From the UHGV virus genome UHGV-0870948: 43,859 nt of DNA. One strand, 5' to 3'. The position numbers and the translations under genes are program-made. The notes under the pieces are model-generated. The model saw only the letters and a program-made list of their open reading frames with translations. It was not told where the DNA came from and made no database searches. The DNA comes from a virus. Positions 25,229 through 43,653 of this stretch are shown here, piece after piece (position 1 is the first letter of the stretch; each line of letters begins with the position of its first letter).

Positions 25229-25259
25229 ATTAAATTGACTTTGTGATTTGCAAAAAAAT

Positions 25260-26816: not shown

Positions 26817-26821
26817 ATATT

Positions 26822-26896: not shown

Positions 26897-26959
26897 AAAT
26901 AAAAAAAGCCACCGTTGCAACTTAAGAGTCACTAACGGCAGCTTACCCTCTAATTATGG

Positions 26960-28141: not shown

Positions 28142-28325
28142 CTCTTTCACTCCATCCGCGATGAACCATGAGAACGTCGTTGACGATGGCGTGCATTTTC
28201 CCGTCTTTATCATCAACGTATTTTCTGACCGTGCCGCGACTACATTTCAGTCTGCGTGCTACTTCTGTCTGGTTTCCGTATGCTTCAACGAGCATGTCTG
28301 GAATGGTTTTTACTGAGAACGTCAT
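28119..28325 (-). CDS. ninH: NinH
   Basis: 68 aa, [36 protein letters not shown]...; lambda NinH-like HTH. Confidence 0.8.
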
Positions 28326-28927
28326 GCGGCCTCACTTCTGCTATTTCGCAGGTCTTTGAGTTTCTGTTGGTACTCTGCCTTGATCGCCTTGCACTCTTCG
28401 ATAGTCCAGCGATGGCGGTTATGGTTTGATTCGATTTCGTCTACTGCTTCCTGCCCGATGCGGATAATCAGTTCGACGCGATACGGAACGAGATTTCCAC
28501 TTTTGTGCTGGTTGCACACCACGCATTGCTTGTGAATATTGCGTTCATCAAATCGGAGTTGAGGTGCCGCAGCAGTTGTCCGGTAATGTCCGGCATCCCA
28601 CTGAGCAGACGTGAGCGTTCCGCACGAGATACATGGTAAGTCGCGGTCTCTTTCTCTGATGAAGGCGTTTACGGCTTGTTGGGCTTGTTTAATCCAGTAA
28701 CTGCGGGGCTTTAAGGCGAGTTTTCGAATCTTCAGTTTATCTTTCTGTTTCTGCTCCTCTCGTCGTCGTTTCTTCTCTGCTGCTTTTTCCGCTTTTTTTC
28801 GCTGTTTACTTTGTAGTTTGAGTGCTAACTGAGTTCCGTGTTCCGGGCAGCACCACCACTGATTTGAGAATGCCGGGTGAAACCATTCCTTGCATATTTT
28901 GCATTTCCTTCGCGCTGGTTTAGCCAT
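28322..28927 (-). CDS. ninG: NinG (Rap) recombination endonuclease
   Basis: 201 aa, [31 protein letters not shown]...; lambda NinG-like. Confidence 0.85.
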
Positions 28928-29096
28928 CGTCTTCTTCCTCGTACATTGAGCTATTCGGATCGCTCATCAGTTCTGCGCAGCAGTGCTCACACACGTGAAC
29001 TTCCAGCACATGCAGCTTTTGACCGCAGTTAGCGCACGTTAAAGCCCGCTCGACGCTTTCTTTCTGGTATTGAAGGGATTGGGATGGGCTAAGCAT
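28920..29096 (-). CDS. ninF: NinF-like small Cys-rich protein
   Basis: 58 aa not in the ORF track: [58 protein letters not shown]; stop overlaps the ninG start. Confidence 0.65.
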
Positions 29097-29454
29097 TATT
29101 GGCGTCCTGCATCATGAGAAAGACAATCATGGCGGCGCGGAGTGGGTTTTCATCTTGAGTCATATGATATGGGGTACTATCACTGCCAACTTTTCTATGC
29201 GCTGCCTTCCATAATCCATTTTCTGGCGCTGGAATAATGCCAATTCTGTTCTCTACGATAATCGGCTCTGCGTCTGATGGGCTTTTACAGTAATCAACCG
29301 TTTTTATTGCATAACCAGTTTCGTCATCCCACTCAACACCAACGATTGATGTTCCCAACTTTGCGATTTCGCAATCTTCGGGAGCAAATCCACAGCAAAT
29401 TGCCACTCGCTTGTTAATTTCAAAATCACTTAACTGTGAATAATCCATTGTCAT
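29089..29454 (-). CDS. nin-region protein (hypothetical)
   Basis: 121 aa from internal ATG ([23 protein letters not shown]...); ATGA overlap with the upstream small gene. Confidence 0.5.
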
Positions 29455-29627
29455 TTCCTCGCACGATGTCTTAGCCACCGGATATCCCACAGGTGAGCCG
29501 TGTAGTTGAAGGTTTTTACGTCAGATTCTTTTGGGATTGGCTTGCGTTTATTTCTGGAGCGCTTCGTTGGAAGGTATTTGCAGTTTTCGCAGATGATGTC
29601 GGTGATACTTCGTCGCTGTCGTCTCAT
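29451..29627 (-). CDS. NinD/NinE-family small basic protein
   Basis: 58 aa not in the ORF track: [58 protein letters not shown]; preceded by AGGAGG. Confidence 0.65.
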
Positions 29628-30034
29628 TCGTACCTCCTGTCGGTAAATCTGACACCCTTACCAATAGCCCATGCTGTCGTGTACTCAATCAGACTTGCCA
29701 TACGCTTCACGCTCATCTGTGCGCTGCTCTCACGAATGTTGACGTATTCGCCTTCAAGCCCGGGCAAAACATCAGCTTCCTGCTTTGTCGCCACTGCATG
29801 ACCGCTTATCAACAAAACCTTCCATTGTTCTGGTTTTAACCATTTATCGCACCATTGAACCTGACGTGCGATATCCGCCAGCATCGCGTGAAATTTTGCG
29901 TTCTGGTCAAGGTTGCGCTTGTAGTCAGTAATGCGGATTGTGACTGGCTTGTCTTTATCGAGTGGTGTTGCGAGGATGGCATTTATTGCAGCTTGCTGTT
30001 GTTGCTTAGTTCGGAGGAAGATTGTTTGCTTCAC
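29624..30034 (-). CDS. ninB: NinB recombination protein
   Basis: 136 aa, lambda NinB-like (…[31 protein letters not shown]…). Confidence 0.8.
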
Positions 30035-30045
30035 TGAATACTCCT

Positions 30046-30237
30046 TTATTTTTTATGCCTGTAACCCCATTCTTCCAGCAACCTTGCGGCGTACCACCCA
30101 AGAAACAAAGGAAAGAACATTACAATGAGATATTCCCCGCCACGGTCAATGTTCGAAATTGACCAGATTACGATGTAACCAGTGCAGGACAGGAATATTA
30201 CAAACCCCAAAAAGCTACTTCGTCGACTCATGCTCAC
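30046..30237 (-). CDS. Small membrane protein (hypothetical)
   Basis: 63 aa with two hydrophobic segments. Confidence 0.4.
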   Translation of the reverse strand: MSMSRRSSFLGFVIFLSCTGYIVIWSISNIDRGGEYLIVMFFPLFLGWYAARLLEEWGYRHKK

Positions 30238-30530
30238 TCCTTCACTTTGATTCCAGCAGCGCGGATGTTTTCCTCATAAGCATCCATTGCATCACCGAAG
30301 CCATTGGAATAATCAACAGTAAACCCTTTGGCTAATGCTTCTCTGCTGTCGATAAACTTTGGCGCGGTTATTTCAATATCTGCTCGCGATGCCTGCCACG
30401 CCTCCCATGCAATCTCGACCTTGATGTGCATAATCTTCATCACGTCACTTGAAACGTGATATTTGTTTTTAAACCATTCTTCAAACTGCTTTCTTGATTC
30501 GTCCATATCACTCTCCGTTAGTAGTTTCAC
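30234..30530 (-). CDS. Hypothetical early protein
   Basis: 98-aa ORF coupled to neighbours. Confidence 0.4.
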   Translation of the reverse strand: MKLLTESDMDESRKQFEEWFKNKYHVSSDVMKIMHIKVEIAWEAWQASRADIEITAPKFIDSREALAKGFTVDYSNGFGDAMDAYEENIRAAGIKVKE

Positions 30531-30729
30531 TCACGAATCTGACAAAACCAGCCATGTTAATTTGCATGAGTTTTTTCAACACCTTGTCTCTTCGACTACG
30601 TTTTGGTTTTGGCCTGTGGTTGAATCTTTCACAAACTGGAAGTCTCGATGATTTCCAGTACCTATTACGCCTTGCTCCATCTTCAGCCATATCGGCATGA
30701 ATAAGGTCTGCGAGTGTGCTCATATTCAC
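30508..30729 (-). CDS. Hypothetical early protein
   Basis: 73-aa basic ORF. Confidence 0.35.
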   Translation of the reverse strand: MNMSTLADLIHADMAEDGARRNRYWKSSRLPVCERFNHRPKPKRSRRDKVLKKLMQINMAGFVRFVSETTNGE

Positions 30730-30738
30730 CTCTTCCAG

Positions 30739-30921
30739 TTACATTGGTTTTGTAATGTTGCTAGTCATCGTTCGAATAACAAAATGCGTAAGTAACCTTG
30801 CTTTCCACATGTAAATCTCTTCAAGGCGAGATAAATCTACGAATACCGGACCTTTGTAATCTGGTCTTGATGCCCTTATGTATGAGCTAATAGTTTGTGC
30901 ATCTTGCTCGTCAAGATTCAT
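30739..30921 (-). CDS. Hypothetical early protein
   Basis: 60-aa ORF. Confidence 0.3.
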   Translation of the reverse strand: MNLDEQDAQTISSYIRASRPDYKGPVFVDLSRLEEIYMWKARLLTHFVIRTMTSNITKPM

Positions 30922-31114
30922 GACTTCCCTCTCTAACAGATTTCAGGTTATTCCACTCCGTTACCGCACTGCGATAATTCGCGGCCGCCACAGCGGCGTG
31001 GTTAGCGCAGTAGATTTGGCACCCGTTCTCCATGTCGAATATTGTCGGTAATTTTCCGCATTTACATTTTTTGGCACGCGGTGCGTCTGAACACATTCCG
31101 TTAACGGTGTCCAT
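30911..31114 (-). CDS. Small Cys-rich protein (putative zinc-binding)
   Basis: 67 aa with C-x-C...C-x3-C pattern, downstream of the helicase gene. Confidence 0.4.
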   Translation of the reverse strand: MDTVNGMCSDAPRAKKCKCGKLPTIFDMENGCQIYCANHAAVAAANYRSAVTEWNNLKSVREGSHES

Positions 31115-31195
31115 CAGGATCCCCCTCGTTCTTAATCCAATAAAAAAGGGCTACTGTGTAAATAGCCCCTGTTATTAGCTCAGTGATGTAGATGG

Positions 31196-32572
31196 TCATA
31201 CGTCCGCCCCTTGTGCATATCGTCTGCCACGCGCAGCAGGTGCATTTGATGCTGTGCAAATCTGTCTGGCTTCATCCTGGTCACATGCAACAAAGTGTCC
31301 GTTACAGAACCGCTGGTAAACCGTACCAAGTGAGCCAAAACGGTTTTTCGTCACGATGATTTCAGCAAATGGTGCGGCGCTACTGTTCTCGTCATATACC
31401 GCTTCCCGATAGAGCATGATGATTGAGTCTGCGTCCTGTTCAATGCTTCCTGAATCACGCAAATCTGCGTTTGTCGGGCGTTTGTTTGGTCGCTTCTCAA
31501 CATCGCGCGAAAGCTGACTCAGGGAGATAACAGGCGTTTTCAGGTCTTTCGCCATCGCCTTCAGGCTTCCTGAGATGTGAGCAATTGCGAGGTCGTTGCG
31601 ATCTGCTTTCGGCTTCTCAATCAGGCCAAGATAATCCGCCATGATGAGTGACAGGTTTGGATTTTCCTGTTTGTGTCGTTCTGCGATTGAGCGTATTTCT
31701 TCGACCGATAACCGCGAGGCATCGACTACCCATACATCCAAATCTGCAAGCTGACTCATGCCGTTAGCAACACGCGCCCAGCCTTCGTCATCCATCGATG
31801 CAGGATTTCGCAGTACGCTAACCGACATCCTCCCGGCGTTGGCAATGCTTCGCTCTGCAATCTGCAATGCGCTCATTTCCATTGAGAAAATCAACACTCC
31901 GCGCCGGACGTCAGAACCAGGAATAACGCGGCTTGCAACGCCTTCGGCAATCTTCAGCGCCAGTTCGGTTTTCCCCATACCCGGACGAGCAGCGATAATC
32001 ACCAGGTCTTCCGCGTTCATCCCTCCGGTGATGGCGTCAAGTTCTTCGATTCCGGTCTTCAGGGTATCTGATTCCTCTCCGTTCCTCAGACGCCTGTCAA
32101 GCGTGTCAGTGTAGTCAGTGATGATTTCCCCTAACCGTACAGGTTTAACCTCGTCACGGGGCTTTCTGATGGCTGAAAGACGCTTTACAAGCTCATCCAT
32201 CGCCTGACTCGATGCGTCGATGGTTCCGCTCTGAATTGGTTCACGCATTTCATCCATGATTTCCAGCACCAGACGGCGGTGATAGTTATCCGCGACCATT
32301 CCGGCATATCCCTTCAGGTTTGCGGCACTCGGGCAGTTTTTGCTGGTCATCAGGATTGACGTGAAATGCTCCTCTCCGCACGCCTCGGCAACCATCAGCG
32401 CATCGATTAGGTTTCTGTTTCGCGCCTGCTTGCGGATAACCTCGAAGGCTTTCCGGTAGAGCGGAATTGAAAACGCTTCCGGCTCCAGCGTTGCAAGAAC
32501 GTCACTGGCGGTTGGAGTTAATCCACCAATCAGCAGGCCACCGATAACGCTCGCTTCGATATCCTGTCTCAT
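31196..32572 (-). CDS. Replicative DNA helicase (DnaB family)
   Basis: 458 aa; Walker A GMGKT, Walker B-like IMADYLGL, overall DnaB-like layout; follows the O-like gene. Confidence 0.85.
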
Positions 32573-33390
32573 GCAATCCCCCTGTCTGCAAACTTCCCTT
32601 CCCGTACTCCCGTTAACGAATCTTCCCTCAGCAGGTAATCAAAATCTGCCGTCCAGCCAGTGTCGTTGTCTCCGAAGTAAAACGGCTTGGCCTGATGCAC
32701 AAACGCCCTGACATACGCTCTGAAACCGTCCACGTTTGGCGTTTTCAGTTGCGGGATGATTTTCTTCAGGCGGCGTTTGCGTTTCTCGTTGACCGCAACA
32801 GCGTGTGGCAGTCTGTCACCGACTTCGGTGTTGTAGGCGTTCAGGAAGGATTCGTAGTCGATTCGTTCTGCCTTGCGACGTTCAGGTTTAACCTGCCCAT
32901 CGCCACCCCCGTTAGGGGGTAAGGGGGTATTTGTATTTATTGTCTTTTGTATATTGTCTTTTGTGTTTAGCTGACTTGGCTTATACCCATTAGCCGACTT
33001 GGCTAATGTTTTATTAGCTGTTTTAGCTAATGTTAAGCTGTCCTGGCTAATCCACTGAGAAACCACCTTGTTCACTCCGATTTTCACGCCATCAGCAATG
33101 AGGAATTTACGCTCGATAAGCTGGCGCTTGGCAGCGCAAACATGAGTGTGATGAATACCTGTCATGGCTGCTATCTGCGTGTTTGTGAGTCGATCCATCG
33201 GCTTATTGAATCCGTATGTCTTGCGCATGATAGCGAGCATCACCTTCAACTGCCGGACGGTTAAATCAGCCATCAGCAGACTGTCGGTAATCTCGTTAGC
33301 AACGCGCATGAAACCATCTTCGGTATCTGCCACGCGATGCTCCACGACCTCAAGTTGAGGCCTGTAATCAGCTAACTTAACGACGCCCAT
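32569..33390 (-). CDS. Replication initiator (lambda O-like) containing ori
   Basis: 273 aa; N-terminal HTH-like region; iteron array lies inside the coding sequence. Confidence 0.7.
32936..33051. repeat. Origin of replication: four ~17-bp iterons plus adjacent AT-rich direct repeats
   Basis: TAGCTGACTTGGCTTAT, TAGCCGACTTGGCTAAT, TAGCTGTTTTAGCTAAT, AAGCTGTCCTGGCTAAT spaced 20-24 bp; ATTGTCTTTTGT repeated twice next to them. Confidence 0.7.
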
Positions 33391-33572
33391 GTTTCACTCC
33401 TGCTTTGGCTAGTCTGTAAACACCAACAAGGCGCTCTGCGAACGCCCTGTTATTTGCTGCGGCTACCACTAATCCCTCAGGTGAATCAGGGTGTCGAATC
33501 TCTTCTTTTTCCTGGTATTTCTTACGACGTTTTGTCATAATTACTCCTGTGGATTGATCCAGTCTTTCTACA

Positions 33573-33851
33573 TCAGGCCTCGAAGAATTCGCCGTTCTTC
33601 GGGGCTTTTTCTTTTGTCAGCATTCTGGCTACTTTCTTAGCCAGTTCCGCCAACTCCTCGTCTTCAACACCCCATTCAAGAACAGCAAGAAGCATTCCCA
33701 TTTTGGGGATGAAGCTGTCTTTCCATCGCGAAATTTGCGATTCATTAATCCCTAACGCGTCGGCAACCTTTCGCTGACCACGTACAGCAATTCGATTCAG
33801 GATGTTGCTTGTAATTGCATTCGCTTTCTTGCGAGTACTTGTAAGTTGCAT
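33573..33851 (-). CDS. cII: CII-like transcriptional activator
   Basis: 92 aa, ...ADALGINESQISRWKDSFIPKMGMLLAVLEWGVEDEELAELAK... closely parallels lambda CII. Confidence 0.8.
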   Translation of the reverse strand: MQLTSTRKKANAITSNILNRIAVRGQRKVADALGINESQISRWKDSFIPKMGMLLAVLEWGVEDEELAELAKKVARMLTKEKAPKNGEFFEA

Positions 33852-33900
33852 ATGTAAGTATTTCCTTAACTAATAAGAAGTTATGCGCATCAACTTATGC

Positions 33901-33943
33901 GCGTTGTATTCCCGCATTTCGGCTGGAATGAGGACCATGACTG
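33901..33943 (-). promoter_or_regulatory. nutR-like site (boxA CGCTCTTTAACA plus imperfect boxB hairpin)
   Basis: Minus strand between cro and cII reads CGCTCTTTAACA...CCAGCCGAAATGCGGG; boxA and the loop are identical to the nutL copy. Confidence 0.5.
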
Positions 33944-33959
33944 TTAAAGAGCGGTGTTA

Positions 33960-34154
33960 CTATTTGTTTTTCTTGTTGCTTGGGAAAGGACGAACTTCCT
34001 CTCCAATCACACTGCCATCAGGCTTTACCGTAACCATAATGTTACGGCCTGCCAGAATGGCCTTGCTGATAGCGCACTGGATTACACCAAAGTCACTGGC
34101 TGCTTTAGCCTGTCCATGGATTTTGGCGTAATCGGCAAGTGTCATTCGAATCAT
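33960..34154 (-). CDS. cro: Cro repressor
   Basis: [64 protein letters not shown]; lambda Cro-like throughout. Confidence 0.85.
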
Positions 34155-34184
34155 ATGCACTCTCCGTTATTAACCATGAACAAA

Positions 34185-34226
34185 GAATACTACAGGTATT
34201 CAAAGCAATCAATACTCAGGGTATTT
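34185..34226. promoter_or_regulatory. OR operators (two 17-bp sites) overlapping divergent PR/PRM promoters
   Basis: GAATACTACAGGTATTC and CAATACTCAGGGTATTT, 25 bp centre to centre, in the cro-cI intergenic region; minus-strand -35 TTGATT / -10 TATTCT candidates. Confidence 0.65.
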
Positions 34227-34319
34227 TTAGTTTAAGTACCTTAGCTATTAGAATTAAGCTATGGAAAATAAAAATCACTGACGACAGAACAGCTGGAAGA
34301 CGCTAAGCGGCTTAAGGCT

Positions 34320-34976
34320 TTGTATGAGTCAAAAAAGAAAGAATTGGGAATAACACAATACTCAATCGCTGATGAACTGGGTATCACCCAAGGAGCGGTA
34401 GGGCATTATCTTAATGGCAGAAACGCGCTAAACGTTGAGGTTGCATCTGGTTTTGCACGACTGTTGCAAGTCTCAATTGCTGATTTTAGCCAGTCAATTG
34501 CTGCCAAGGTTGCAGAACAGGCAGAAAGCCTTAAGAGCGATGCCAACGTAAGGTATGCAGGGGAATACAGAGCAGGAAAGAGGTATCCGGTGTTAAGCAG
34601 TATCCAGGCTGGCTCGTGGTGTGAAGCATGCGAACCATACACCATTAAAGACATAGATGTTTGGCTTGAGTCTGACGCGCATATTCAAGGTAATGCGTTC
34701 TGGCTTAAAGTGGAAGGTGATTCAATGACGGCACCGGTTGGGTTAAGCATTCCAGAGGGAACATTCGTTCTTTTCGATACCGGAAGGGAGGCGATCAACG
34801 GCAGCTTGGTCATAGCAAAACTTTCTGACTCTAACGAAGCAACATTCAAGAAGCTGATAATCGACGGCGGAAATAAATACCTCAAGGGACTTAATCCTGC
34901 ATGGCCTCTCGTGCCAATCAATGGAAACTGCAAGATTATAGGCGTTGCAATTGAGACAAAACTAAGGCTGGTTTGA
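34320..34976 (+). CDS. cI: CI-type prophage repressor (HTH plus LexA-like S24 peptidase domain); N-terminus frame-disrupted upstream
   Basis: ORF-track product 218 aa from TTG; the frame stays open back to 34272 and encodes conserved KSLTTEQLEDAKRLKAL, but the only ATG (34261) is in another frame. Confidence 0.8.
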   Translation: MYESKKKELGITQYSIADELGITQGAVGHYLNGRNALNVEVASGFARLLQVSIADFSQSIAAKVAEQAESLKSDANVRYAGEYRAGKRYPVLSSIQAGSWCEACEPYTIKDIDVWLESDAHIQGNAFWLKVEGDSMTAPVGLSIPEGTFVLFDTGREAINGSLVIAKLSDSNEATFKKLIIDGGNKYLKGLNPAWPLVPINGNCKIIGVAIETKLRLV

Positions 34977-34993
34977 TCACGCAAGGGGCGATT

Positions 34994-35362
34994 ATGGTTG
35001 GAACCGCTATAGCAAGCTTTTTTGGGATGTTGGCAATCTCGACAATTTACGGCTTAGCGCATGCTTTTATTGCGAAATCTCTATCAGAAAAAATAAGCCA
35101 GGCTTGGGCGCATAGATTAGCTCGTTTCATGATTCTGGTGATCATAGCAATACAAGGGATATCTGCATTTATCCTCTATGGTTCAAGCTTATACCTGTTG
35201 TATCAAGGCGCGACATTTACGCCTTACACCAGTGATTACGGAACGCTATACGATGGTAGTGAAGACATCTCTATGGCTTGGATCGTCTTTGGTTTATCTA
35301 TGGCCGTGTCTGTTGTAGCAGACATCATTAAGGTAATTCTCGTCTTAACCTTCGCTGACTAA
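34994..35362 (+). CDS. Small polytopic membrane protein in the rexAB position (candidate exclusion protein)
   Basis: About 122 aa from ATG 34994 with AAGGGG RBS; three to four hydrophobic helices; overlaps or abuts the cI stop. Confidence 0.5.
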   Translation: MVGTAIASFFGMLAISTIYGLAHAFIAKSLSEKISQAWAHRLARFMILVIIAIQGISAFILYGSSLYLLYQGATFTPYTSDYGTLYDGSEDISMAWIVFGLSMAVSVVADIIKVILVLTFAD

Positions 35363-35492
35363 CCTATAATCCCGGCAGCAATAGCTATCGGGATCCACTT
35401 CACATATCCCGCATAAAAAGCACTGAACAAGCAGACACCGAAAAAATAAATATCCTTTGTATTCATTTGCTTATCATTATTTCATCAAAAAT

Positions 35493-35535
35493 AAATACCT
35501 TGGGTATTTACACAATAAAATACCTACAGTATTCT
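35493..35535 (+). promoter_or_regulatory. OL operators (two 17-bp sites) overlapping PL
   Basis: AAATACCTTGGGTATTT and AAATACCTACAGTATTC, 25 bp apart; -35 TTTACA (35507-35512), 17-bp spacer, -10 TATTCT (35530-35535). Confidence 0.65.
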
Positions 35536-35580
35536 TTAGCCATCAGCAGGACGCTGGAAGCCAAACGGAACAGATTGGCA

Positions 35581-35621
35581 GGCTCTTTAACATTGATGGG
35601 ATTGTCCCGCCGAAATGCGGG
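35581..35621 (+). promoter_or_regulatory. nutL (boxA GCTCTTTAACA and boxB hairpin CCCGC-CGAAAT-GCGGG)
   Basis: Located between PL and the N gene; same boxA and loop as nutR. Confidence 0.6.
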
Positions 35622-35729
35622 AACCAAAGAGTAGTTGGCTTTGGGGTGACGTGAAGTGCAGCTGCACGACGGCAACCGGAAGATAAGCACCCGGCGCGTC
35701 ACCGCCAAAGTCAATCATCGGAGGTCAAC

Positions 35730-36035
35730 ATGACAGTAGTCATTACATATCTGGCTGACGATAACGCCAGAAATCGCCGCAGAGCACGCAGACAGGCTCA
35801 ACGTGAACAGGCAATGCAAGAGCAGCGACTGGCGCGAAAAATTGCGCTAAAGCTCTCTGGTTGCGTCAGGGCAGACAAAGCAGCATCACTCGGAAGCCTT
35901 CGCTGCCAGAAGGCAGAAGAAGTCGAGCGTAAACAGAACCGTATTTACTACCGCAAGCCACGCAGTGAAATGGGTGTGACATGCTCAGGCCGCCAGAAGC
36001 AACGCGGAAAATCAATTCCAGCTTATTACGATTGA
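35730..36035 (+). CDS. N: N-type transcription antiterminator
   Basis: Arg-rich N-terminus (NARNRRRARRQAQREQ) and C-terminus ...YYRKPRSEMGVTCSGRQKQRGKSIP matching lambda N. Confidence 0.8.
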   Translation: MTVVITYLADDNARNRRRARRQAQREQAMQEQRLARKIALKLSGCVRADKAASLGSLRCQKAEEVERKQNRIYYRKPRSEMGVTCSGRQKQRGKSIPAYYD

Positions 36036-36043
36036 GGTGAGCC

Positions 36044-36181
36044 ATGCTCAAGAAAGTCAAACGCCGACTTTACAAAGAAGGTAGATATTCATGCCAGTTG
36101 CCAAAATGCGACACAGCAAAATGGAGTGTCGATGATTGGTGTAACTGGATAGATAGATACGGAACTTGGTGGGATAAATAA
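36044..36181 (+). CDS. Small Cys/Trp-rich protein (hypothetical)
   Basis: 45 aa not in the ORF track: MLKKVKRRLYKEGRYSCQLPKCDTAKWSVDDWCNWIDRYGTWWDK; RBS GAGGTGAG abuts the N stop. Confidence 0.3.
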   Translation: MLKKVKRRLYKEGRYSCQLPKCDTAKWSVDDWCNWIDRYGTWWDK

Positions 36182-36235
36182 CAGGTAACTTAAGCATATT
36201 TACTTTCGCAGCAAACCACTTATTTGAGGTGAGAT

Positions 36236-36706
36236 ATGACAAAATCATGGAGCGTACCTTTTCCTGAATCAGAAACTGAACATGATGGAATGCCTGTTTT
36301 CTGGAGATTCCAAGCGACAGTTGAAGAAGATGGAATCAAAATATTCGCACTTCAATATATAGCTTTTCATCAGACAGAGCATTATGCATGGTTGGTTCCT
36401 GCGAATTGGATTGTTAATTTTAAACCAGCACCAAATCAGTGGTTACAGGAATGGAAACAAAGGAGAAATAGATATGCAATTAAGAAAGTAGCAAAAAATG
36501 CAGAAAGATCTTTTGCATTCCCAACGAAGAAACTTGCCATTGAGAGTTTATTGCGCCGGAAGAAATACCATTTAATGAGAATCAAACAAGATTTGGCTGT
36601 TGTATCAACTCTTGTTGATGGGATGAAAAATATTGATACATCAACACCAGATATTGAATATAACTTTGGACACAACCAAGAAACAGAAAATTGGGTATTT
36701 TATTAG
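36236..36706 (+). CDS. Hypothetical protein in an AT-rich segment downstream of N
   Basis: 156 aa; RBS TTGAGGTGAG identical to that of the preceding small ORF; visibly AT-rich codon usage. Confidence 0.5.
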   Translation: MTKSWSVPFPESETEHDGMPVFWRFQATVEEDGIKIFALQYIAFHQTEHYAWLVPANWIVNFKPAPNQWLQEWKQRRNRYAIKKVAKNAERSFAFPTKKLAIESLLRRKKYHLMRIKQDLAVVSTLVDGMKNIDTSTPDIEYNFGHNQETENWVFY

Positions 36707-36810
36707 TACGAATAAGCACTGTGTATTCATTCCAACGAGTGAATACACGGAGCAATGTCGCTCGTAACTAAACAGGAGCCGACTTGTTCTGATTATTGGA
36801 AATCTTCTTT

Positions 36811-36836
36811 GCCCTCCAGTGTGAGGGCCTTTTTAT
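36811..36836 (+). terminator. Rho-independent terminator (tL-like)
   Basis: GCCCTC-CAGTGT-GAGGGC followed by CTTTTTAT. Confidence 0.55.
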
Positions 36837-36897
36837 ATGCATACCAATAACGCTTCACTCGAGGCGTTTTTCGTTATGTATAAATAAGGAGCACACC

Positions 36898-37038
36898 ATG
36901 CAATATGCCATTGCAGGGTGGCCTGTTGCTGGCTGCCCTTCCGAATCTTTACTTGAACGAATCACACGTAAATTACGTGATGGATGGAAACGCCTTATCG
37001 ACATACTTAATCAGCCAGGAGTTCCCAAAAATGGATAA
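36898..37038 (+). CDS. Small hypothetical protein
   Basis: 46 aa from ATG preceded by TAAGGAGC. Confidence 0.4.
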   Translation: MQYAIAGWPVAGCPSESLLERITRKLRDGWKRLIDILNQPGVPKNG

Positions 37039-37144
37039 AACACTTATGGCTATCCAGACTAAATTCACTATCGCCACTTTTATTGGCGATGAAAAGATGT
37101 TTCGTGAAGCCGTAGAAGCCTACAGAAAATGGAGGTCAAAATGA
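37031..37144 (+). CDS. Small hypothetical protein
   Basis: 37 aa (MDKTLMAIQTKFTIATFIGDEKMFREAVEAYRKWRSK), overlaps neighbours. Confidence 0.3.
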   Translation: MDKTLMAIQTKFTIATFIGDEKMFREAVEAYRKWRSK

Positions 37145-37329
37145 TTCCGGTAGAACTGGCGAAAACTCCAGAGTTAAGTCGATTAAAAAGAGAATATCAC
37201 ATTGCTGAGGCTCGTTACTGGCGTAAAGCGGGAGATAAATCAAAGAAACAACTTTGTTTATGGCAGGCGCAAAGAGAGCGCATGAATGAGCGCGAATTTC
37301 TTCCCCCCCCATCCGAATTACCATTCTGA
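37141..37329 (+). CDS. Small hypothetical protein
   Basis: 62 aa from ATG preceded by GGAGG. Confidence 0.4.
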   Translation: MIPVELAKTPELSRLKREYHIAEARYWRKAGDKSKKQLCLWQAQRERMNEREFLPPPSELPF

Positions 37330-37337
37330 GGTGAATT

Positions 37338-38018
37338 ATGGGAACTGCGACATTAATACTCGGTGAGTCTGGCACCGGAAAATCAACCAGCATGAGAAAT
37401 ATCAATCCAGAGGAAGCAATACTTATAAAACCAATAGGCAAGCCACTACCATTTAAATCAAAAGACTGGCTTGCATGGGATGCCAGAGCCAAAAAAGGAA
37501 CCGTAGTTACCACTGACAAATGGGACGTAATAGTTGCCGTAATTAAGCGTGCTCACGAATACGGGAAAAGAATCGTTATTGTTGATGACTTCCAGTATGT
37601 GATGAGCAATGAGTTTATGCGCCGCTCAGAAGAAAAATCGTTTGATAAATTCACTGAGATAGGCCGTCACGCATGGGAGGTGATTAAGGCTGCGCAGGAT
37701 GCACCTGATGACCTGAGAGTCTATTTTCTTGCGCACACCGAAGAAACCCCTATGGGGCGCGTGAAAATGAAGACTATCGGCAAAATGCTGGACGAGAAAA
37801 TCACTGTCGAAGGCATGTTTACTATAGTTCTTCGCACCCTTACCCGTGATGACCAGTTCTTTTTCACCACGAAAAACAACGGTGCAGACACTGTTAAATC
37901 CCCAATTGGAATGTTTGACTCCAATGAGATTGATAACGATCTCTCTTTCGTCGATGCCACTGTTTGTGATTACTACGGCATCAATAATGTTCATCAAATT
38001 AAGGAAAACGCCGCATGA
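37338..38018 (+). CDS. P-loop ATPase (Sak4-like recombination protein)
   Basis: Walker A GESGTGKST near the N-terminus and Walker B IVIVDD; 226 aa. Confidence 0.6.
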   Translation: MGTATLILGESGTGKSTSMRNINPEEAILIKPIGKPLPFKSKDWLAWDARAKKGTVVTTDKWDVIVAVIKRAHEYGKRIVIVDDFQYVMSNEFMRRSEEKSFDKFTEIGRHAWEVIKAAQDAPDDLRVYFLAHTEETPMGRVKMKTIGKMLDEKITVEGMFTIVLRTLTRDDQFFFTTKNNGADTVKSPIGMFDSNEIDNDLSFVDATVCDYYGINNVHQIKENAA

Positions 38019-38602
38019 GCAACGTGATTTTTACTTATAACGAAGAAGCAGCACTGACCGCAGGGCAAGGTGGTTTTATTAACGAAACTGGCGCTCATAT
38101 CATTACCATTACTGAAGCAGAACTAAAGCAATCAGAAAAAGGCGCAAAATTTATTGAGTTTTCTGGCGAATCCGACGACGGACGTAAAATCCAATATCTT
38201 AGCGTCTGTGTTCAGAAAAATGACGGAACGGAAAACAAATTTGGCGCAAATGTCGTTCACGCCATGATGGGGTGTGCCGGGATTGGACAATTAACGCAGC
38301 ATATGGTTTCCGCCAGTAAATTTGTTGCACCTGAATTTCATGGAAAGAAAATCGGGTTAGTGCTCCAGAAAGTATTAACCACAAACAAAAAGACTGGCGC
38401 AGACAGCTACCAGATGGAAATACGCATCCCGTTTATTGCACAAACAGGTCAAACCCTTAAAGAAAAGGCAGAAGGCAAGCAACCAGAAACTATCGCCAAC
38501 ATGGTTGCCAATCTCAAAGATAAAGACAATCGCTCTAAAAACGTAAGCCAGAATCATGCAGATGATTATGGTTACAGCCAGAACGATTACCCTCCTTTCT
38601 GA
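38015..38602 (+). CDS. SSB-like phage protein with acidic C-terminal tail
   Basis: 195 aa coupled to the ATPase; C-terminus ...DDYGYSQNDYPPF resembles the SSB acidic tip. Confidence 0.45.
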   Translation: MSNVIFTYNEEAALTAGQGGFINETGAHIITITEAELKQSEKGAKFIEFSGESDDGRKIQYLSVCVQKNDGTENKFGANVVHAMMGCAGIGQLTQHMVSASKFVAPEFHGKKIGLVLQKVLTTNKKTGADSYQMEIRIPFIAQTGQTLKEKAEGKQPETIANMVANLKDKDNRSKNVSQNHADDYGYSQNDYPPF

Positions 38603-38625
38603 TTACTGAAAATAAGGCTCCCATT

Positions 38626-38922
38626 ATGCCAGCGCCTCTGTATGGTGCGGATGACCCGCGCAATTGCTCCGGTAGCTCCAAGGCGGAGGTGCTGGAAAAT
38701 ATCAAAAACATTTTCGACACGTTTATTGATCTGCCACCAGAAACAAAAGCAGAACGGATGTACCGACGCGATATACAACTCGCGTTAAAAGATGAGAAGG
38801 ACCGAACAAACGAAACAGCAATGAGACCGTTGCGAAAAGCGACAATAGACAAATTCCCTGAATATATCGACCCGCGCCTGCGTAATTACCGCTCACGCTA
38901 TGGCGCTATCAGTAATGACTGA
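38626..38922 (+). CDS. Hypothetical early protein
   Basis: 98-aa ORF. Confidence 0.4.
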
Positions 38923-38932
38923 GGAATTTACC

Positions 38933-39100
38933 ATGAGAGGACTTGCATACAATCCCGGCATTCTTCCGGCAGAAATGATTATTCGCCAACGCGTAAAGCC
39001 AATGCCATCGAGAGAGGAATTGCTTAAGAGAAATAGTTTCGGTTCTGTTAATGACAACAAATATCTGAATGCGATGTGGCGTAAAGGAGGCAGCCAGTGA
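38933..39100 (+). CDS. Small hypothetical protein
   Basis: 55 aa from internal ATG with GAGG RBS. Confidence 0.35.
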
Positions 39101-39741
39101 ATAACCGTTTTTACATGATGTGCTTGCGTGAAACTGTGGGTAATAACGCCTCATTCCATTGCCATAACGGCAATGGTTACAGTTCTGATATCGATCGCGC
39201 TCATGTTTACACGCTGGAAGAAGCCCAAAAAGCCTGGAATTGTGGACGAGATATCGATCAGCCTGTTTGCGCTGATAGCGTGGATGCAATGGCAGTGTGG
39301 CACGTTGATTGCCAGTACATCCCTACAGAAAACCTGATTGAGCCAGATTGCACTGCGTATGTAGCCTACAAAAAAGGTAGCTGGAACGGCAACGACGTCT
39401 ACTGGCTTCAACATGGTGGGCTACCAACCGATGACTTCAGTCAAGCAACCATCTTTAGCGTCGCTAACAAAAACGAGCCAGGAATAGTTTGGTTGCCATT
39501 TTCCATTGCTGATGCAGCAAAGCGCCGGACGTTCAATATCAATAACTTTAACCGCAGAACAATGGTTCAGGGCGCAGGTTTGGTCATGCCTGACTGGTTG
39601 AAAAAGCAAAACAGAAGAAAGAAGTCGCGAAGCGGGAAAGTGCGCTGGAATTGTCCGCATTGCGGAAAAATAACCTGGCAGTACAGCCCATATGATTTTG
39701 AAGGCTGTAGTGATTACAACTGTGAAGGATGGCGAGAATGA
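39097..39741 (+). CDS. Hypothetical protein with C-terminal Cys cluster
   Basis: 214 aa; C-terminus CPHCG...CSDYNC suggests a zinc ribbon. Confidence 0.45.
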
Positions 39742-40538
39742 CAATTGACTATCAGGCACTGCGTGAAAAAGCAGAGAAAGCAACTAAAGGAAGCTACATC
39801 GTAGGGAATACATCTGTTAACCAGCACGGCAATTTAACAGGAGTTTTTGTTTGTCAAAAATGGAAAGGAGAACCCGGTGGCGTGATTGCAGAATGTCACG
39901 TTAACTGCCTGGTTGAAACAGATGCTCAGGCTTACGCAAACGCTGAATTCATAGCAGAGGTTAACCCAGCTACCATGCTGGCACTGCTGGATGAACGGGA
40001 AGCCCAAAACAAGTGTATCGCAGAACTGGAAAAAATCGCCACTGACTATGCACTGAAATTTCAGAAAGCCCAGGACGCATTAAAGCACGTTGTTTTGATG
40101 CGCAAATCAGAGCAGGAAGCCGCAGAGAACAACCTTATTGATAGTGAATGCCATGTTGCTGAACTGGAAGAAGCGCTACGCGATAAGCAGGCGTTACTTG
40201 AAGCCTCAGAAAAGCGCAACGCGAAATTACAAAGCGAGAATGCATACATCCGCAACCGGTTCAAAGAACTGGACCTATTAATCGGGAAAAACATTCTGGT
40301 CATGCAGGCTGCCATTATCGAATGGCAGGCAACTGGCGACGCTAAGAGCGGACTGGCATGGATTTATAACACACTGTTTGGCCCTGGCGAATTGCCGGAC
40401 GAATCTGAGAAAGATGCTCAGGCCTACTTTAATCGCAAATATGCACCGATTGACGAAAAGCTTATGGCGCTTCACAAGTGGTTTTGGGAACAAAGTGAAG
40501 CCGAGCGCGTCGCTGGCATTTGCATCAAAGGAGAGTGA
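39729..40538 (+). CDS. Ea22-like coiled-coil protein
   Basis: 269 aa with long central coiled coil; typical of lambdoid early-left regions. Confidence 0.5.
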   Translation: MARMTIDYQALREKAEKATKGSYIVGNTSVNQHGNLTGVFVCQKWKGEPGGVIAECHVNCLVETDAQAYANAEFIAEVNPATMLALLDEREAQNKCIAELEKIATDYALKFQKAQDALKHVVLMRKSEQEAAENNLIDSECHVAELEEALRDKQALLEASEKRNAKLQSENAYIRNRFKELDLLIGKNILVMQAAIIEWQATGDAKSGLAWIYNTLFGPGELPDESEKDAQAYFNRKYAPIDEKLMALHKWFWEQSEAERVAGICIKGE

Positions 40539-40539
40539 G

Positions 40540-40920
40540 ATGAGCGCTATAACCAAAGAACGTATCAAATTATTCATTAAAAATCCGCTTGATAACGGAC
40601 TTACTCGTGGCGAACAAATGGAACTGGCACGAATTGCACTGACATCGCTGGAAGCAGAGCCGGTGGCATGGACTGATGAAGAGGAACTGCGCGATGTCAA
40701 GCAGTATGGTTTCGGTGAGATATTTCAGTGCCCGCCAGATAAATACGCGGACTCGCGTCGTGTAATCCCGCTGTATCGCGAGCTGCCAGCGCAGGTAGTC
40801 CCGGAGGAAATCAGCATGTCCTCATCACTGCCTCTCATGAGTGATCAGTTGATGGCGTTGGGGTATGTGAAGGGCTGGAACGCCTGCCGTGCCGCTATGC
40901 TTCAGGGGAAAGGAGAGTGA
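40540..40920 (+). CDS. Hypothetical early protein (shares N-terminal motif with the DUF551-like gene)
   Basis: 126 aa from ATG with AAGGAGAG RBS; contains ELARIALTSLEAEPVAWT. Confidence 0.45.
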   Translation: MSAITKERIKLFIKNPLDNGLTRGEQMELARIALTSLEAEPVAWTDEEELRDVKQYGFGEIFQCPPDKYADSRRVIPLYRELPAQVVPEEISMSSSLPLMSDQLMALGYVKGWNACRAAMLQGKGE

Positions 40921-40921
40921 T

Positions 40922-41119
40922 ATGGACAAAAACACACCTGCTTACTGGAGTTTATCACTTGATACTGAATGCCCAAAATGCGGCCACAATTTCGATCTGC
41001 TTTGCGATGCTGATTTCTGGGAATTTTCTGGAGCAAAACAGGCATGTGAAGAAATAAAAGGTTACGAAACATGCTGTCCAGAATGTAACCATGAATTTAA
41101 AACAGATTTCGTGTATTGA
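40922..41119 (+). CDS. Small zinc-ribbon protein
   Basis: 65 aa; CPKCGH...CCPECNH. Confidence 0.45.
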   Translation: MDKNTPAYWSLSLDTECPKCGHNFDLLCDADFWEFSGAKQACEEIKGYETCCPECNHEFKTDFVY

Positions 41120-41129
41120 GGCATAACAA

Positions 41130-41660
41130 ATGACCACTATTACCAGAGAACAAGCTCTGAAAATTATTGAGGCAGCCGATGAGGTTATTAGTGCGCTTGC
41201 CGGAACTCACGAGGATGTTCACCCTGGTAGCGATAACATGCTACGCCTGTGGGATGACCTGAATGACCGTTACGCGCCGCCGGAAGTTGTGCGTGAGCTG
41301 GCACGGATTGCGCTGGCATCGCTGGAAGCAGAGCCTGTAAGCCAAACTTACAAGTTGAACGAGCTGTCGGGCAACTCTCAGGTAACTCCGGATGGTTGGA
41401 TAAGCTGTAGTGAGCGAATGCCTATAATCGGCGAGCTAAATTGGAGAACTGGTTTTCCTTTGCTGATTACGTGTGAGATCGGCGTTATACCAGCTTATTA
41501 CGGCTTTGTGAGCGTTAATGGGAATAAGCATTATGGTTTTATGGAGAGTCTTAAATACGGAGACGATAACGGCAACCATCCTCAAACTAATGAATATGGT
41601 CTGATTAGCAATGTCACACACTGGATGCCGCTACCGGAACCGCCGCAGGAGGTGAAGTGA
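41130..41660 (+). CDS. DUF551-like phage protein
   Basis: 176 aa; C-terminal ...HWMPLPEPP; N-terminal ELARIALASLEAEPV motif. Confidence 0.5.
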   Translation: MTTITREQALKIIEAADEVISALAGTHEDVHPGSDNMLRLWDDLNDRYAPPEVVRELARIALASLEAEPVSQTYKLNELSGNSQVTPDGWISCSERMPIIGELNWRTGFPLLITCEIGVIPAYYGFVSVNGNKHYGFMESLKYGDDNGNHPQTNEYGLISNVTHWMPLPEPPQEVK

Positions 41661-41938
41661 TGGACTCCTTCGCGAAATATACGATTATTGACTGGATAGC
41701 ATTCCTTCAGGTTTTGCTCATCTGGTTTTATATGGCTTACAGGAGTGGACAGTGGATTGTCAGTGTAGCCTGTAGCAAGGGATGGCGTTGGTGGAACCGG
41801 AAGAACAAAAAAGCACTGGCATTGGATTCGTTTTACGAAGCATTCAATCTTAACAGCCTTCAGCCTGGTTCTGTCATTGTAGCCACCACTCAAAGCGGCA
41901 TGACCATTCAGATTCATAAACCAAAAGAGGAAAAATGA
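41657..41938 (+). CDS. Hypothetical protein with N-terminal hydrophobic segment
   Basis: 93-aa ORF coupled to the upstream gene. Confidence 0.35.
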   Translation: MMDSFAKYTIIDWIAFLQVLLIWFYMAYRSGQWIVSVACSKGWRWWNRKNKKALALDSFYEAFNLNSLQPGSVIVATTQSGMTIQIHKPKEEK

Positions 41939-42255
41939 TGTGGCCTATATGTGTTAATTGCGGACGGATGTGCCTATCTGGATGGTGCCGAAAGTGCGAC
42001 AAATGCACGAAGAAAAGACAATAACAATCCTCGAACTCGCGGGGATTTCTTTTATCTGAACTCGCTACAGCGAGTTTTGTTTTATGGAGATGATAAATGC
42101 ACTTCCGAGTCACAGGTGAATGGAATGGATAACCATTCAACAGAGTTATCGAAGCAGAGGACATCAACGACTGCTATGCCCACTGGATGCTGTGGGCGCA
42201 GATAGCACATGCAGACGTAACCAACATTCGAATTGAAGAACTGAAAGAACACCAA

Positions 42256-42279
42256 GCCGCCTGATGGCGGTTTCTTTTT
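42256..42279 (+). terminator. Rho-independent terminator ending the early-left operon
   Basis: GCCGCC-TGAT-GGCGGT followed by TTCTTTTTG. Confidence 0.6.
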
Positions 42280-42294
42280 GCCTGGAGAATTAAG

Positions 42295-42486
42295 ATGACC
42301 GATACCAGCCTGATTCCTGAGAAAGAAGTGATGAACAAGCTCGGTGTTTCATCACGTCAGACAATCTGGAACTATACCAAACGGCACGGATTTCCGAAGC
42401 CAGTCAGAACCCACCCCAAATCATACCTTCGTGAAGCTGTTGAGGGGTGGATTCTTAACGGTGGCGTTAATCAGAAATGCTCCTGA
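42295..42486 (+). CDS. xis: AlpA/Xis-family excisionase-like DNA-binding protein
   Basis: 63 aa, ...EVMNKLGVSSRQTIWNYTKRHGFPKPVRTHPKSYLREAVEGWI; convergent with and overlapping the int 3' end. Confidence 0.6.
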   Translation: MTDTSLIPEKEVMNKLGVSSRQTIWNYTKRHGFPKPVRTHPKSYLREAVEGWILNGGVNQKCS

Positions 42487-43645: not shown

Positions 43646-43653
43646 AAATAATA

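What the first reader, a model, noticed from the sequence alone, without database searches (positions are those of the whole stretch)
34994..35362. Small multi-pass membrane protein in the rexAB position downstream of cI
Seen in sequence: an ORF of about 122 aa with three to four hydrophobic helices begins immediately after cI, on the same strand, and ends before OL/PL. In lambda this slot holds the rexA-rexB exclusion genes expressed from the prophage. A lone small membrane protein here is a plausible lysogen-expressed exclusion or abortive-infection factor of a different type.
Basis: partly seen in the sequence, partly recalled or inferred. Interest (0 to 1): 0.55.

Follow-up and report, generated by a model that had tools for sequence, protein, structure and literature searches.

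The report
Orphan prophage membrane gene hkaS
The ORF is real and is the long-annotated but never characterised gene hkaS of the phage HK620 immunity region: a three-helix inner-membrane protein made together with the repressor, sitting in a slot where related phages keep anti-phage defence genes, so it is a reasonable but unproven candidate for a new exclusion factor.

Summary
Observation confirmed. Window 34994-35362 (+) is a 122-aa ORF that starts 17 nt after the cI stop, has its own Shine-Dalgarno sequence, and ends before OL and PL. It is hkaS ("unknown") of phage HK620. It has three predicted transmembrane helices, not four (AlphaFold2 pLDDT 92.5), oriented N-out, C-in.

The family is an orphan: no Pfam, NCBIfam, PADLOC or PDB match, PHROG 6534 "unknown function", and one family in 1.84 billion representative proteins. 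It is not related in sequence to lambda RexB or P22 SieA.

It is a real gene under purifying selection (dN/dS 0.14). All 75 sampled copies are intact, and it is linked 1:1 with HK620-type cI in 146 E. coli genomes. It evolves about 5-6 times faster than cI.

In phages whose cI is 59-76% identical, the same slot holds BstA, a SIR2 protein, an OLD-like ATPase, a two-gene candidate system with a membrane partner, and a NYN nuclease.

The defence reading rests on position only; no experiment or homology supports it. My best guess is a lysogen-expressed inner-membrane block to superinfecting phages, by entry block or abortive infection. Moderate interest: a new candidate member of a known kind.

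The parts
34186..34249 (.). OR1 (34186-34200), OR2 (34211-34225) and OR3 (34235-34249), operators of the HK620-type repressor. The inferred PRM fires rightwards (+) into cI, with TAGAAT at 34250-34255 six nt before the cI ATG, so the mRNA would be leaderless as in lambda.
   Evidence: The operator pattern ARTAYYNNNNSTATT matches only 6 sites in 43.9 kb against 0.2 expected. HK620 annotates OR1-3 and pR here. The PRM -10 and the leaderless start are my reading of the sequence, not a tool result.
34261..34976 (+). cI repressor (HTH_3 plus Peptidase_S24), first gene of the inferred PRM operon. In this window it is frameshifted after codon 4 by a 1-nt deletion in an A6 run (34270-34274).
   Evidence: Pfam HTH_3 and Peptidase_S24. 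99.5% identical to HK620 cI over 218 aa. The alignment shows A5 against A6. The A5 form occurs 0 times and the A6 form in 104 stretches of IMG/VR.
34983..34988 (+). Shine-Dalgarno AAGGGG for hkaS, 5 nt before the ATG
   Evidence: Read from the sequence. A purine-rich SD is kept at the same place in all diverged lineages.
34994..35362 (+). hkaS: 122-aa, three-TM inner-membrane protein. The N-terminus is predicted periplasmic. Loop 28-44 is basic, cytoplasmic and the most conserved segment. Loop 71-92 is acidic, periplasmic, carries a beta-hairpin and is the most variable. Invariant polar residues in the membrane are Q54, D110 and K113.
35369..35394 (+). Stem-loop just after the hkaS stop. It is the likely 3' end or stabiliser of the cI-hkaS transcript. 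It has no U-tail, so it is not a canonical intrinsic terminator.
   Evidence: RNA fold -15.3 kcal/mol, z -2.5. Each diverged lineage has a different hairpin at the same place, with z from -1.5 to -3.9. The terminator scan finds none here.
35449..35463 (.). Sixth operator-like site (AATATCCTTTGTATT), probably the true OL3, 45 bp centre-to-centre from OL2. It is conserved in all diverged loci.
   Evidence: It differs from the OL3 annotated in HK620.
35494..35535 (+). OL2 (35494-35508), OL1 (35519-35533) and PL (TTTACA, 17 nt, TATTCT; 35507-35535), which drives N (35730-36035)

Best explanation
hkaS is an accessory gene embedded in the HK620-type immunity cassette, between cI and its own OL operators. 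It is most likely transcribed with cI from PRM in the lysogen and translated from its own ribosome-binding site. The product is a 122-aa protein that inserts in the inner membrane with three helices, N-terminus out and C-terminus in. I propose that it protects the lysogen against superinfection by heteroimmune phages by acting at the inner membrane. The most likely mechanism is interference with passage of the incoming genome or with its membrane conduit. That is how P22 SieA works, which is also a small three-TM inner-membrane protein, and T4 Imm too (from my own knowledge). Shown here: gene reality, selection, predicted topology, operon layout, strict linkage to this cI type, and the defence-rich nature of the slot. 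Inferred: expression in lysogens, any anti-phage activity, and the step that is blocked.
For: (1) Layout: a 17-nt gap after cI, the same strand, its own SD, no terminator-like site in cI, in hkaS or between them, and a hairpin after the gene in every lineage. Lambda keeps rexAB in the same place. (2) The slot is a defence hotspot among this repressor's own relatives: BstA (E 1.5e-105), a KilA-N/BstA-like protein, SIR2 PDC-S25 (E 4e-235), OLD-like HEC-04, PDC-M53A plus a 4-TM PDC-M53B, and a NYN nuclease. Owen et al. 2021 make the same point (PMC8585504). (3) It is a confidently predicted membrane protein with almost no soluble part. SieA, shown experimentally to be an inner-membrane injection blocker, is predicted to have three TM domains (PMC10883804). 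(4) Selection: deep dN/dS is 0.14, so the gene is functional, yet dN is 5-6 times that of cI. Among 75 close copies, hkaS has 30 amino-acid-changing against 14 silent polymorphic codons, while cI has 5 against 26 (Fisher p = 8e-6), with no disrupted copy. The periplasmic loop is the least conserved segment (18% invariant). This fits a surface that meets changing incoming phage parts. (5) It travels with the immunity type and not with the virion type. The same module sits in the podovirus HK620, in mEpX2 and HK630 (lambda-like siphoviruses, from my own knowledge), in Stx2c phages, and next to this window's SEN34-like structural module, whose closest E. coli relatives are named vB_EcoM. That is what an accessory function aimed at other phages would look like. 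(6) cI relatives of 59-76% identity do without it, so it is not part of the switch itself.
Against: There is no direct evidence of any anti-phage effect. No defence model matches. There is no homology to RexB, SieA or anything else. Fold searches return only generic helical bundles. Known injection blockers such as sieA sit beside the virion genes they act on, whereas hkaS is tied to cI. The most conserved part is the cytoplasmic loop (53% invariant), not the periplasmic one, which would suit a cytoplasm-side partner. The excess of amino-acid polymorphism consists mostly of conservative hydrophobic swaps and may simply reflect loose constraint on TM residues. Guilt by position is weak, because about half of the sampled cargo in this slot also has no defence match.
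Confidence: 0.35

Rival explanations
1. Abortive-infection effector. HkaS is a stand-alone, Rex-like or holin-like membrane protein that stays silent in the lysogen. When a phage infects, it opens or oligomerises, collapses the membrane potential and kills or arrests the cell before progeny are made.
For: It sits where lambda keeps rexB, reported to be a membrane channel (PMC8585504). It has the topology I recall for class I holins (three TM, N-out, C-in). Invariant polar and charged residues sit inside the helices: Q54, D110 and K113. Linkage to cI rather than to virion genes fits a broad defence against heterologous phages, as with Rex and BstA.
Against: There is no sensor partner: the slot holds a single conserved gene. 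It has three helices, not the four reported for RexB, and no sequence relation to RexB (hhalign probability 0.7%). It lacks the charged C-terminal tail that I recall as typical of holins; the protein ends in TFAD. If it is made constitutively from PRM, it must be harmless on its own.
Confidence: 0.2
2. Lysogenic conversion unrelated to phage defence. HkaS would be a small membrane protein that benefits the host in another way, for example immunity to a pore-forming bacteriocin, colicin or contact-dependent toxin, or tolerance of an envelope stress.
For: From my own knowledge, immunity proteins to pore-forming colicins of the E1, Ia and 5/K types are inner-membrane proteins of about 100-115 aa with three TM helices, the same size and architecture. 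Prophage accessory genes in lysogen-expressed positions include non-defence fitness factors, such as lambda bor and lom. About half of the cargo sampled in this slot has no defence match.
Against: No Pfam, NCBIfam or profile match to any immunity family. No toxin gene lies nearby. The identifiable neighbours in this slot are anti-phage systems, not bacteriocin immunity genes.
Confidence: 0.2
3. A function intrinsic to the immunity module. HkaS would tune the phage's own lysis-lysogeny switch or its induction, for instance by modulating a membrane or cytoplasmic protease such as FtsH or ClpXP. From my own knowledge, RexB alone and cIII have been reported to do this. Alternatively it could couple membrane state to repressor stability.
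For: Linkage with this cI clade is strict and 1:1: 146 genomes and 147 places for both genes, 16 of 16 IMG/VR loci with cI at 87% identity or more, and every diverged lineage. Sister clades, in contrast, swap cargo freely. The most conserved segment is a short cytoplasmic amphipathic helix and loop, KISQAWAHRxARF, which suits a conserved cellular or phage partner.
Against: Linkage is expected anyway, because hkaS lies between cI and the OL operators that must stay matched to it. cI relatives at 59-76% identity work without it. dN is 5-6 times faster than in cI and cro, which is unusual for a core regulatory part. No similarity to cIII or RexB.
Confidence: 0.15
4. Not a functional gene: a chance or decaying ORF in the cI 3' region.
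For: No known domain. A high share of amino-acid-changing polymorphism among close copies.
Against: dN/dS is 0.14 at dS 0.71. Length and topology are kept down to 52% identity. All 75 copies are intact. The SD and start are conserved. AlphaFold2 pLDDT is 92.5 from only 7 sequences.
Confidence: 0.01

Closest known systems
HkaS of coliphage HK620 (AF335538, protein AAK28867; PHROG 6534)
   Same: The same gene: 96.7% amino-acid identity, the same position between cI and OL, and the same flanking operators. It is also present in mEpX2, HK630, HK140, HF4s, HZ41, phi296/phi367 and two Stx2c phages.
   Different: Only allelic differences; S42L was seen only in this window among the copies sampled. 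The function was annotated 'unknown' in the HK620 record and remains so. I found no paper on it.
Lambda RexB (with RexA), the classical occupant of the cI-OL slot
   Same: Same slot, strand and operon logic. Both are small, helical inner-membrane proteins expressed with the repressor.
   Different: No sequence relation (hhalign probability 0.7%). Three TM helices instead of four. 122 aa against 144 aa. No RexA-like partner gene.
P22 SieA superinfection-exclusion protein
   Same: A small prophage-expressed inner-membrane protein with three predicted TM segments and little soluble mass. SieA blocks DNA injection (PMC10883804).
   Different: No sequence relation (hhalign probability 0.3%). SieA is 162-164 aa, has its own promoter and lies next to the ejection-protein genes in the immI region rather than next to the repressor.
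BstA (Salmonella phage BTP1) and the other cargo found downstream of related cI genes
   Same: The same genomic slot directly downstream of cI-type repressors. BstA is highly expressed in lysogens and is a proven abortive-infection defence (PMC8585504). It is found here next to 74-75% identical relatives of this cI.
   Different: In the L041 locus BstA is a 301-aa protein with no predicted TM helix, and it is reported to act at sites of phage DNA replication (PMC8585504). It has no similarity to HkaS.
T4 Imm and the lactococcal Sie2009 type of membrane exclusion proteins (from my own knowledge; not tested here beyond the profile search)
   Same: Tiny membrane proteins that block phage genome entry. 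Sie2009 genes lie beside the prophage repressor.
   Different: No detectable homology: nothing outside the HkaS family was found in 1.84 billion representatives. The number of TM helices differs.

Membership tests
HkaS / PHROG 6534 (uncharacterised) | Full-length sequence match to the family profile | tested here: met
   phrog_6534 E 3.3e-78, residues 1-122 of 122. 96.7% identity to HK620 HkaS.
HkaS / PHROG 6534 (uncharacterised) | Position immediately downstream of an HK620-type cI and upstream of OL/PL/N | tested here: met
   146 of 146 E. coli genomes carry both genes.
Lambda Rex system (RexB) | Sequence homology to RexB | tested here: not met
   hhalign probability 0.7%. The profile search of 1.84 billion proteins finds only its own family.
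Lambda Rex system (RexB) | Four transmembrane helices | tested here: not met
   Three hydrophobic segments and three long helices.
Lambda Rex system (RexB) | Adjacent cytoplasmic sensor gene (rexA) | tested here: not met
   hkaS is the only conserved gene between cI and OL. The antisense 35-aa ORF is not conserved.
Lambda Rex system (RexB) | Located in the cI operon between cI and OL | tested here: met
Lambda Rex system (RexB) | Abortive infection with loss of membrane potential on superinfection | not testable with these tools
   Needs infection experiments.
P22 SieA-type injection blockers | Sequence homology to SieA | tested here: not met
   hhalign probability 0.3%.
P22 SieA-type injection blockers | Small inner-membrane protein with three TM segments | tested here: met
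   By prediction only. The SieA properties come from PMC10883804.
P22 SieA-type injection blockers | Blocks DNA delivery of specific phages; escape mutations map to ejection or tape-measure proteins | not testable with these tools
   Needs plating, potassium-efflux and DNA-entry assays.
Known or candidate defence systems (PADLOC-DB 2.0) | Match to any of 5027 defence protein models | tested here: not met
   No family at E <= 1.
Class I holins | Three TM, N-out and C-in, with a charged cytoplasmic C-terminal tail, encoded in the lysis cassette (features recalled from my own knowledge) | tested here: not met
   The topology fits, but the C-terminus is only 'TFAD' after TM3 and the gene is in the immunity region. 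No Pfam holin match.
Immunity proteins to pore-forming colicins | Sequence match to a colicin-immunity family; linked or circulating cognate toxin | tested here: not met
   No Pfam or NCBIfam hit. No toxin gene nearby. The similar size and three-TM architecture are noted from memory only.

The most novel reading that the evidence does not exclude
HkaS is a minimal one-protein defence: a 122-aa, three-helix membrane protein with no partner. It would itself sense the membrane event of phage genome entry and then either close the route or collapse the membrane potential. That would make it a new family of single-gene, membrane-only anti-phage immunity that has been kept inside one repressor's immunity cassette across Escherichia, Salmonella and Hafnia. 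Alternatively it could be a membrane input into the repressor switch itself.
Probability: 0.12. Interest if true: 0.7.

Novelty: new member of a known kind. Interest (0 to 1): 0.38.

Why it matters
The cI-to-N interval of lambdoid prophages is one of the most strongly expressed prophage positions. It has already yielded Rex and BstA. HkaS is present in about 2.7% of complete E. coli genomes, including Stx2c-converting phages. It has no relatives, no domain and no assigned function. If it does exclude phages, it would add a very small, single-gene, membrane-embedded defence family. It would also give a simple system for studying how phage genomes cross the inner membrane or how membrane-only abortive infection works: one gene, a confident model, and invariant Q54, D110 and K113 to mutate. 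It would matter for phage therapy and for phage typing of strains that carry HK620-immunity prophages. If it has no phage phenotype, it becomes a lead to a different kind of lysogenic conversion.

Tried and rejected
1. Remote homology led nowhere. I tried Pfam (only a sub-threshold TssN hit, E 0.041), NCBIfam, PADLOC, a PDB sequence search, a word-indexed search of 5.8 billion proteins (12 clusters, all the same family) and an exhaustive profile search of 1.84 billion representatives (own family only).

3. Direct profile comparison with lambda RexB and P22 SieA showed no relation.

4. A second gene in the slot is rejected. The 35-aa hydrophobic antisense ORF (35359-35466) is broken or absent in every diverged lineage, and its ATG is simply part of the conserved OL3-like operator.

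5. A cleavable signal peptide is rejected. The 'AHA' after TM1 is not conserved in homologues, there is no basic n-region, and AlphaFold2 models a continuous helix.

6. A foreign-composition argument fails. hkaS has 42.3% GC against 45.5% for cI, which is not distinctive.

7. Literature searches for hkaS, mEpX2, HK620 with exclusion terms, and 'downstream of cI' found no functional study.

8. A scan of GTDB species-representative genomes found no copy, so it gave no taxonomic breadth.

9. I considered folding a tandem fusion to probe oligomerisation.

Full report
**What is there**

Window 31.2-36.0 kb is a lambdoid early region in reversed orientation. It runs P (31196-32572, -), O (32569-33390, -), cII (33573-33851, -), cro (33960-34154, -), OR, cI (34261-34976, +), the ORF in question (34994-35362, +), OL/PL, and N (35730-36035, +).

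- It starts 17 nt after the cI stop, and AAGGGG lies 5 nt before its ATG.
- In diverged homologues an in-frame stop lies just upstream of the same ATG and the purine-rich ribosome-binding site is kept. The 122-aa form is therefore the real product, not the 129-aa TTG form.

**Identity**

The whole cI-to-N stretch is 98.8-99.4% identical to the immunity region of coliphage HK620 and of mEpX2, HK630, HK140, HF4s, HZ41, phi296/phi367 and two Stx2c-converting phages. In the HK620 record the gene is 'hkaS: unknown'. It is not a new sighting, but I found no paper that addresses its function.

The rest of the window is a mosaic. It joins a SEN34-like structural module, whose closest E. coli relatives are named vB_EcoM, to a lambdoid early region. 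The same immunity cassette therefore rides with several different virion modules: HK620 (genus Lederbergvirus, the P22 group), mEpX2 and HK630 (lambda-like siphoviruses, from my own knowledge), Stx2c phages, and this window's SEN34-like module.

**The protein**

- Hydropathy gives three segments, about 3-27, 45-70 and 93-120.
- AlphaFold2, from an alignment of only seven sequences, gives mean pLDDT 92.5. It models helices 2-29 and 41-73, a short amphipathic helix 31-38 between them, a small beta-hairpin at 78-86, and helix 89-121.
- In all homologues, loop 28-44 carries 3-5 Lys/Arg, and loop 71-92 is acidic with almost no Lys/Arg. The positive-inside rule therefore gives N-terminus out, loop 1 cytoplasmic, loop 2 periplasmic and C-terminus in.
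- No cleavable signal peptide is conserved.
- Invariant residues include Q54 in TM2, D110 and K113 in TM3, and the KIxQxWxHxxARF stretch of loop 1.
- The cytoplasmic loop is the most conserved segment (53% invariant). The periplasmic loop is the least conserved (18%).

**Relatives**

None were found outside the family.
- Pfam, NCBIfam, PADLOC and a PDB sequence search give nothing significant. PHROG 6534 is 'unknown function'.
- Among 5.8 billion clustered proteins there are 12 clusters, in E. coli, Hafnia, Salmonella and metagenomes. Identity falls to 52%, and the full-length clusters are 122 aa.
- An exhaustive profile search of 1.84 billion representatives returns only the family itself.
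- Fold searches give only generic helical bundles.
- Direct profile comparisons with lambda RexB and P22 SieA are negative.

**It is a selected gene, tied to one repressor type**

- Against the Hafnia-type copy, synonymous divergence is the same for cI (0.78) and hkaS (0.71), so the two have been inherited together. dN/dS is 0.02 for cI and 0.14 for hkaS.
- In deeper comparisons cI stays 84-89% identical while HkaS drops to 52-61%. N and cII are unrelated or replaced.
- In every lineage the order is cro, cI, hkaS, a hairpin, OL, N.
- In complete E. coli genomes, cI and hkaS give identical counts: 146 genomes and 147 places.
- Among 80 IMG/VR loci with relatives of this cI, all 16 with cI at 87% identity or more carry the gene, and none of the others do.
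- In a further 75 IMG/VR copies, every hkaS is an intact 122-aa ORF, with 30 protein alleles. Polymorphic codons split 14 silent to 30 amino-acid-changing in hkaS, against 26 to 5 in cI (Fisher p = 8e-6). Most of the changes are conservative hydrophobic swaps.

The linkage is partly structural. hkaS lies between cI and the OL operators, and those operators must stay matched to cI.

**What the slot tells us**

In phages whose cI is 59-76% identical, the position just downstream of cI holds very different cargo.
- BstA (E 1.5e-105) and a KilA-N/BstA-like protein.
- A SIR2 protein (PDC-S25, E 4e-235).
- An OLD-like ATPase (HEC-04).
- A two-gene candidate system whose second protein has four TM helices (PDC-M53A/B).
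- A NYN nuclease.
- Several unknowns.
- One clade has a convergent 128-aa secreted or lipoprotein-like ORF instead.

Owen et al. 2021 note that this cI-N interval is a hotspot of mosaic diversity, holds rexAB in lambda and bstA in BTP1, and is served by one of the most active prophage promoters (PMC8585504). Lambda's layout was checked directly. This is real contextual support for a lysogen-expressed accessory or defence role. It is support by position only.

**Mechanism**

I commit to a prophage-expressed inner-membrane protein that interferes with superinfecting heteroimmune phages at the membrane. Entry block is somewhat more likely than abortive infection.

For entry block:
- The protein is almost entirely membrane-embedded.
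- It has no sensor partner.
- If it is made constitutively, it must be harmless.
- The fastest-evolving part faces the periplasm.

Against entry block:
- sieA sits beside the virion genes it acts on, whereas hkaS is tied to cI.
- The best-conserved part of HkaS is cytoplasmic.

The abortive-infection reading, a lone Rex- or holin-like depolariser, is supported by the slot and by the buried invariant D110, K113 and Q54.

Two non-defence readings remain open. One is a conversion function such as immunity to a pore-forming toxin. The other is a role in the phage's own switch, for example modulating a protease. Neither is excluded by anything I could compute. A spurious ORF is excluded.

**Comparison and novelty**

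By membership this is HkaS/PHROG 6534 and nothing else. It fails the defining tests for RexB (homology, four TM helices, a RexA partner), for SieA (homology, location) and for holins (charged tail, lysis cassette). By likely mode of action it belongs with the small prophage membrane exclusion proteins. I rate it a new, still hypothetical, member of a known kind.

Interest is moderate. A specialist would not be surprised by an accessory gene here. However, an orphan single-gene membrane candidate with a confident model and a clean genetic test is a worthwhile target.

**Side observations**

- The window's cI has lost one A from an A6 run at codons 4-5, so the annotated start runs into a stop after six codons. 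This A5 form is absent from IMG/VR, while the A6 form occurs in 104 stretches. It is either a homopolymer sequencing error or a private inactivating mutation.
- The operator pattern occurs at only six sites in the window. The sixth, at 35449-35463, is conserved in all lineages and is not the OL3 annotated in HK620.
- The hydrophobic 35-aa antisense ORF that starts inside that operator is not conserved.

Noticed in passing
window 34261-34280 (A-run 34270-34274): The window's cI has a 1-nt deletion in the A6 run at codons 4-5, so the annotated ATG frame stops after 6 codons (MENKNH*). The rest of cI is intact from TTG 34320 but would lack helix 1. The A5 form is absent from IMG/VR, while the A6 form occurs in 104 stretches. 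This is a homopolymer sequencing error or a private repressor-inactivating mutation.
   Followed up: yes
window 35359-35466 (-): A 35-aa, very hydrophobic antisense ORF (MNTKDIYFFGVCLFSAFYAGYVKWIPIAIAAGIIG) lies convergent with hkaS and overlaps its stop. Some phage records may annotate it, since they list two or three hypothetical proteins between cI and N. It is truncated or frameshifted in the Hafnia-, Salmonella- and other diverged loci, and its ATG is part of the conserved operator-like site, so it is probably not a gene.
   Followed up: yes
window 35449-35463: A sixth operator-like site (AATATCCTTTGTATT) lies 45 bp centre-to-centre from OL2. It is conserved in all diverged immunity regions. 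The HK620 record instead annotates a poorly matching, non-conserved sequence (about 35471-35487) as OL3. The unusual OL2-OL3 spacing may matter for cooperative or looped repressor binding.
   Followed up: partly
L029-L092 (IMG/VR loci with cI relatives), first 0.1-2 kb downstream of cI: The slot after related cI genes holds BstA, a KilA-N/BstA-like protein, a SIR2 protein (PDC-S25), an OLD-like ATPase (HEC-04), PDC-M53A with a 4-TM PDC-M53B (Rex-like architecture), a NYN nuclease, DUF7946/DUF7947, a ParA-like ATPase and many unknowns. It is a rich and largely unmined cargo site.
   Followed up: partly
L029 4249-4635 (-): In the sister clade (cI 76% identical) the slot holds a convergent 128-aa ORF with an N-terminal signal or lipoprotein-like sequence (…LPMVSNASC…). 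It is a possible envelope-located exclusion or conversion protein.
   Followed up: no
window 34994-35362 and 75 IMG/VR copies (L094-L173): hkaS shows a strong excess of amino-acid-changing over silent polymorphism compared with the adjacent cI: 30 to 14 against 5 to 26 polymorphic codons, Fisher p = 8e-6. No copy is disrupted. S42L was seen only in this window among the copies sampled.
   Followed up: partly
window 36236-36706 (+): A 156-aa ORF downstream of N has low GC (35.5% against 49% for the window). It matches PHROG 1636, unknown function, with no Pfam, NCBIfam or PADLOC assignment. It is a second uncharacterised accessory-like gene, in the PL operon. A 45-aa ORF (36044-36181, PHROG 1871) precedes it.
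   Followed up: partly
window 1-24000 against 24001-43859: The window is a mosaic. It joins a SEN34-like structural module (95.8% identical to vB_EcoM-611R5) to a lambdoid early region shared with P22-like, lambda-like and Stx2c phages.
   Followed up: partly
proteins P0006, P0007, P0009; phage HF4s (MT833387): A few database copies of hkaS have a frameshifted or rearranged N-terminal third (TM1 replaced), and the HF4s copy aligns in two pieces. These may be sequencing errors or occasional decay of TM1.
   Followed up: no
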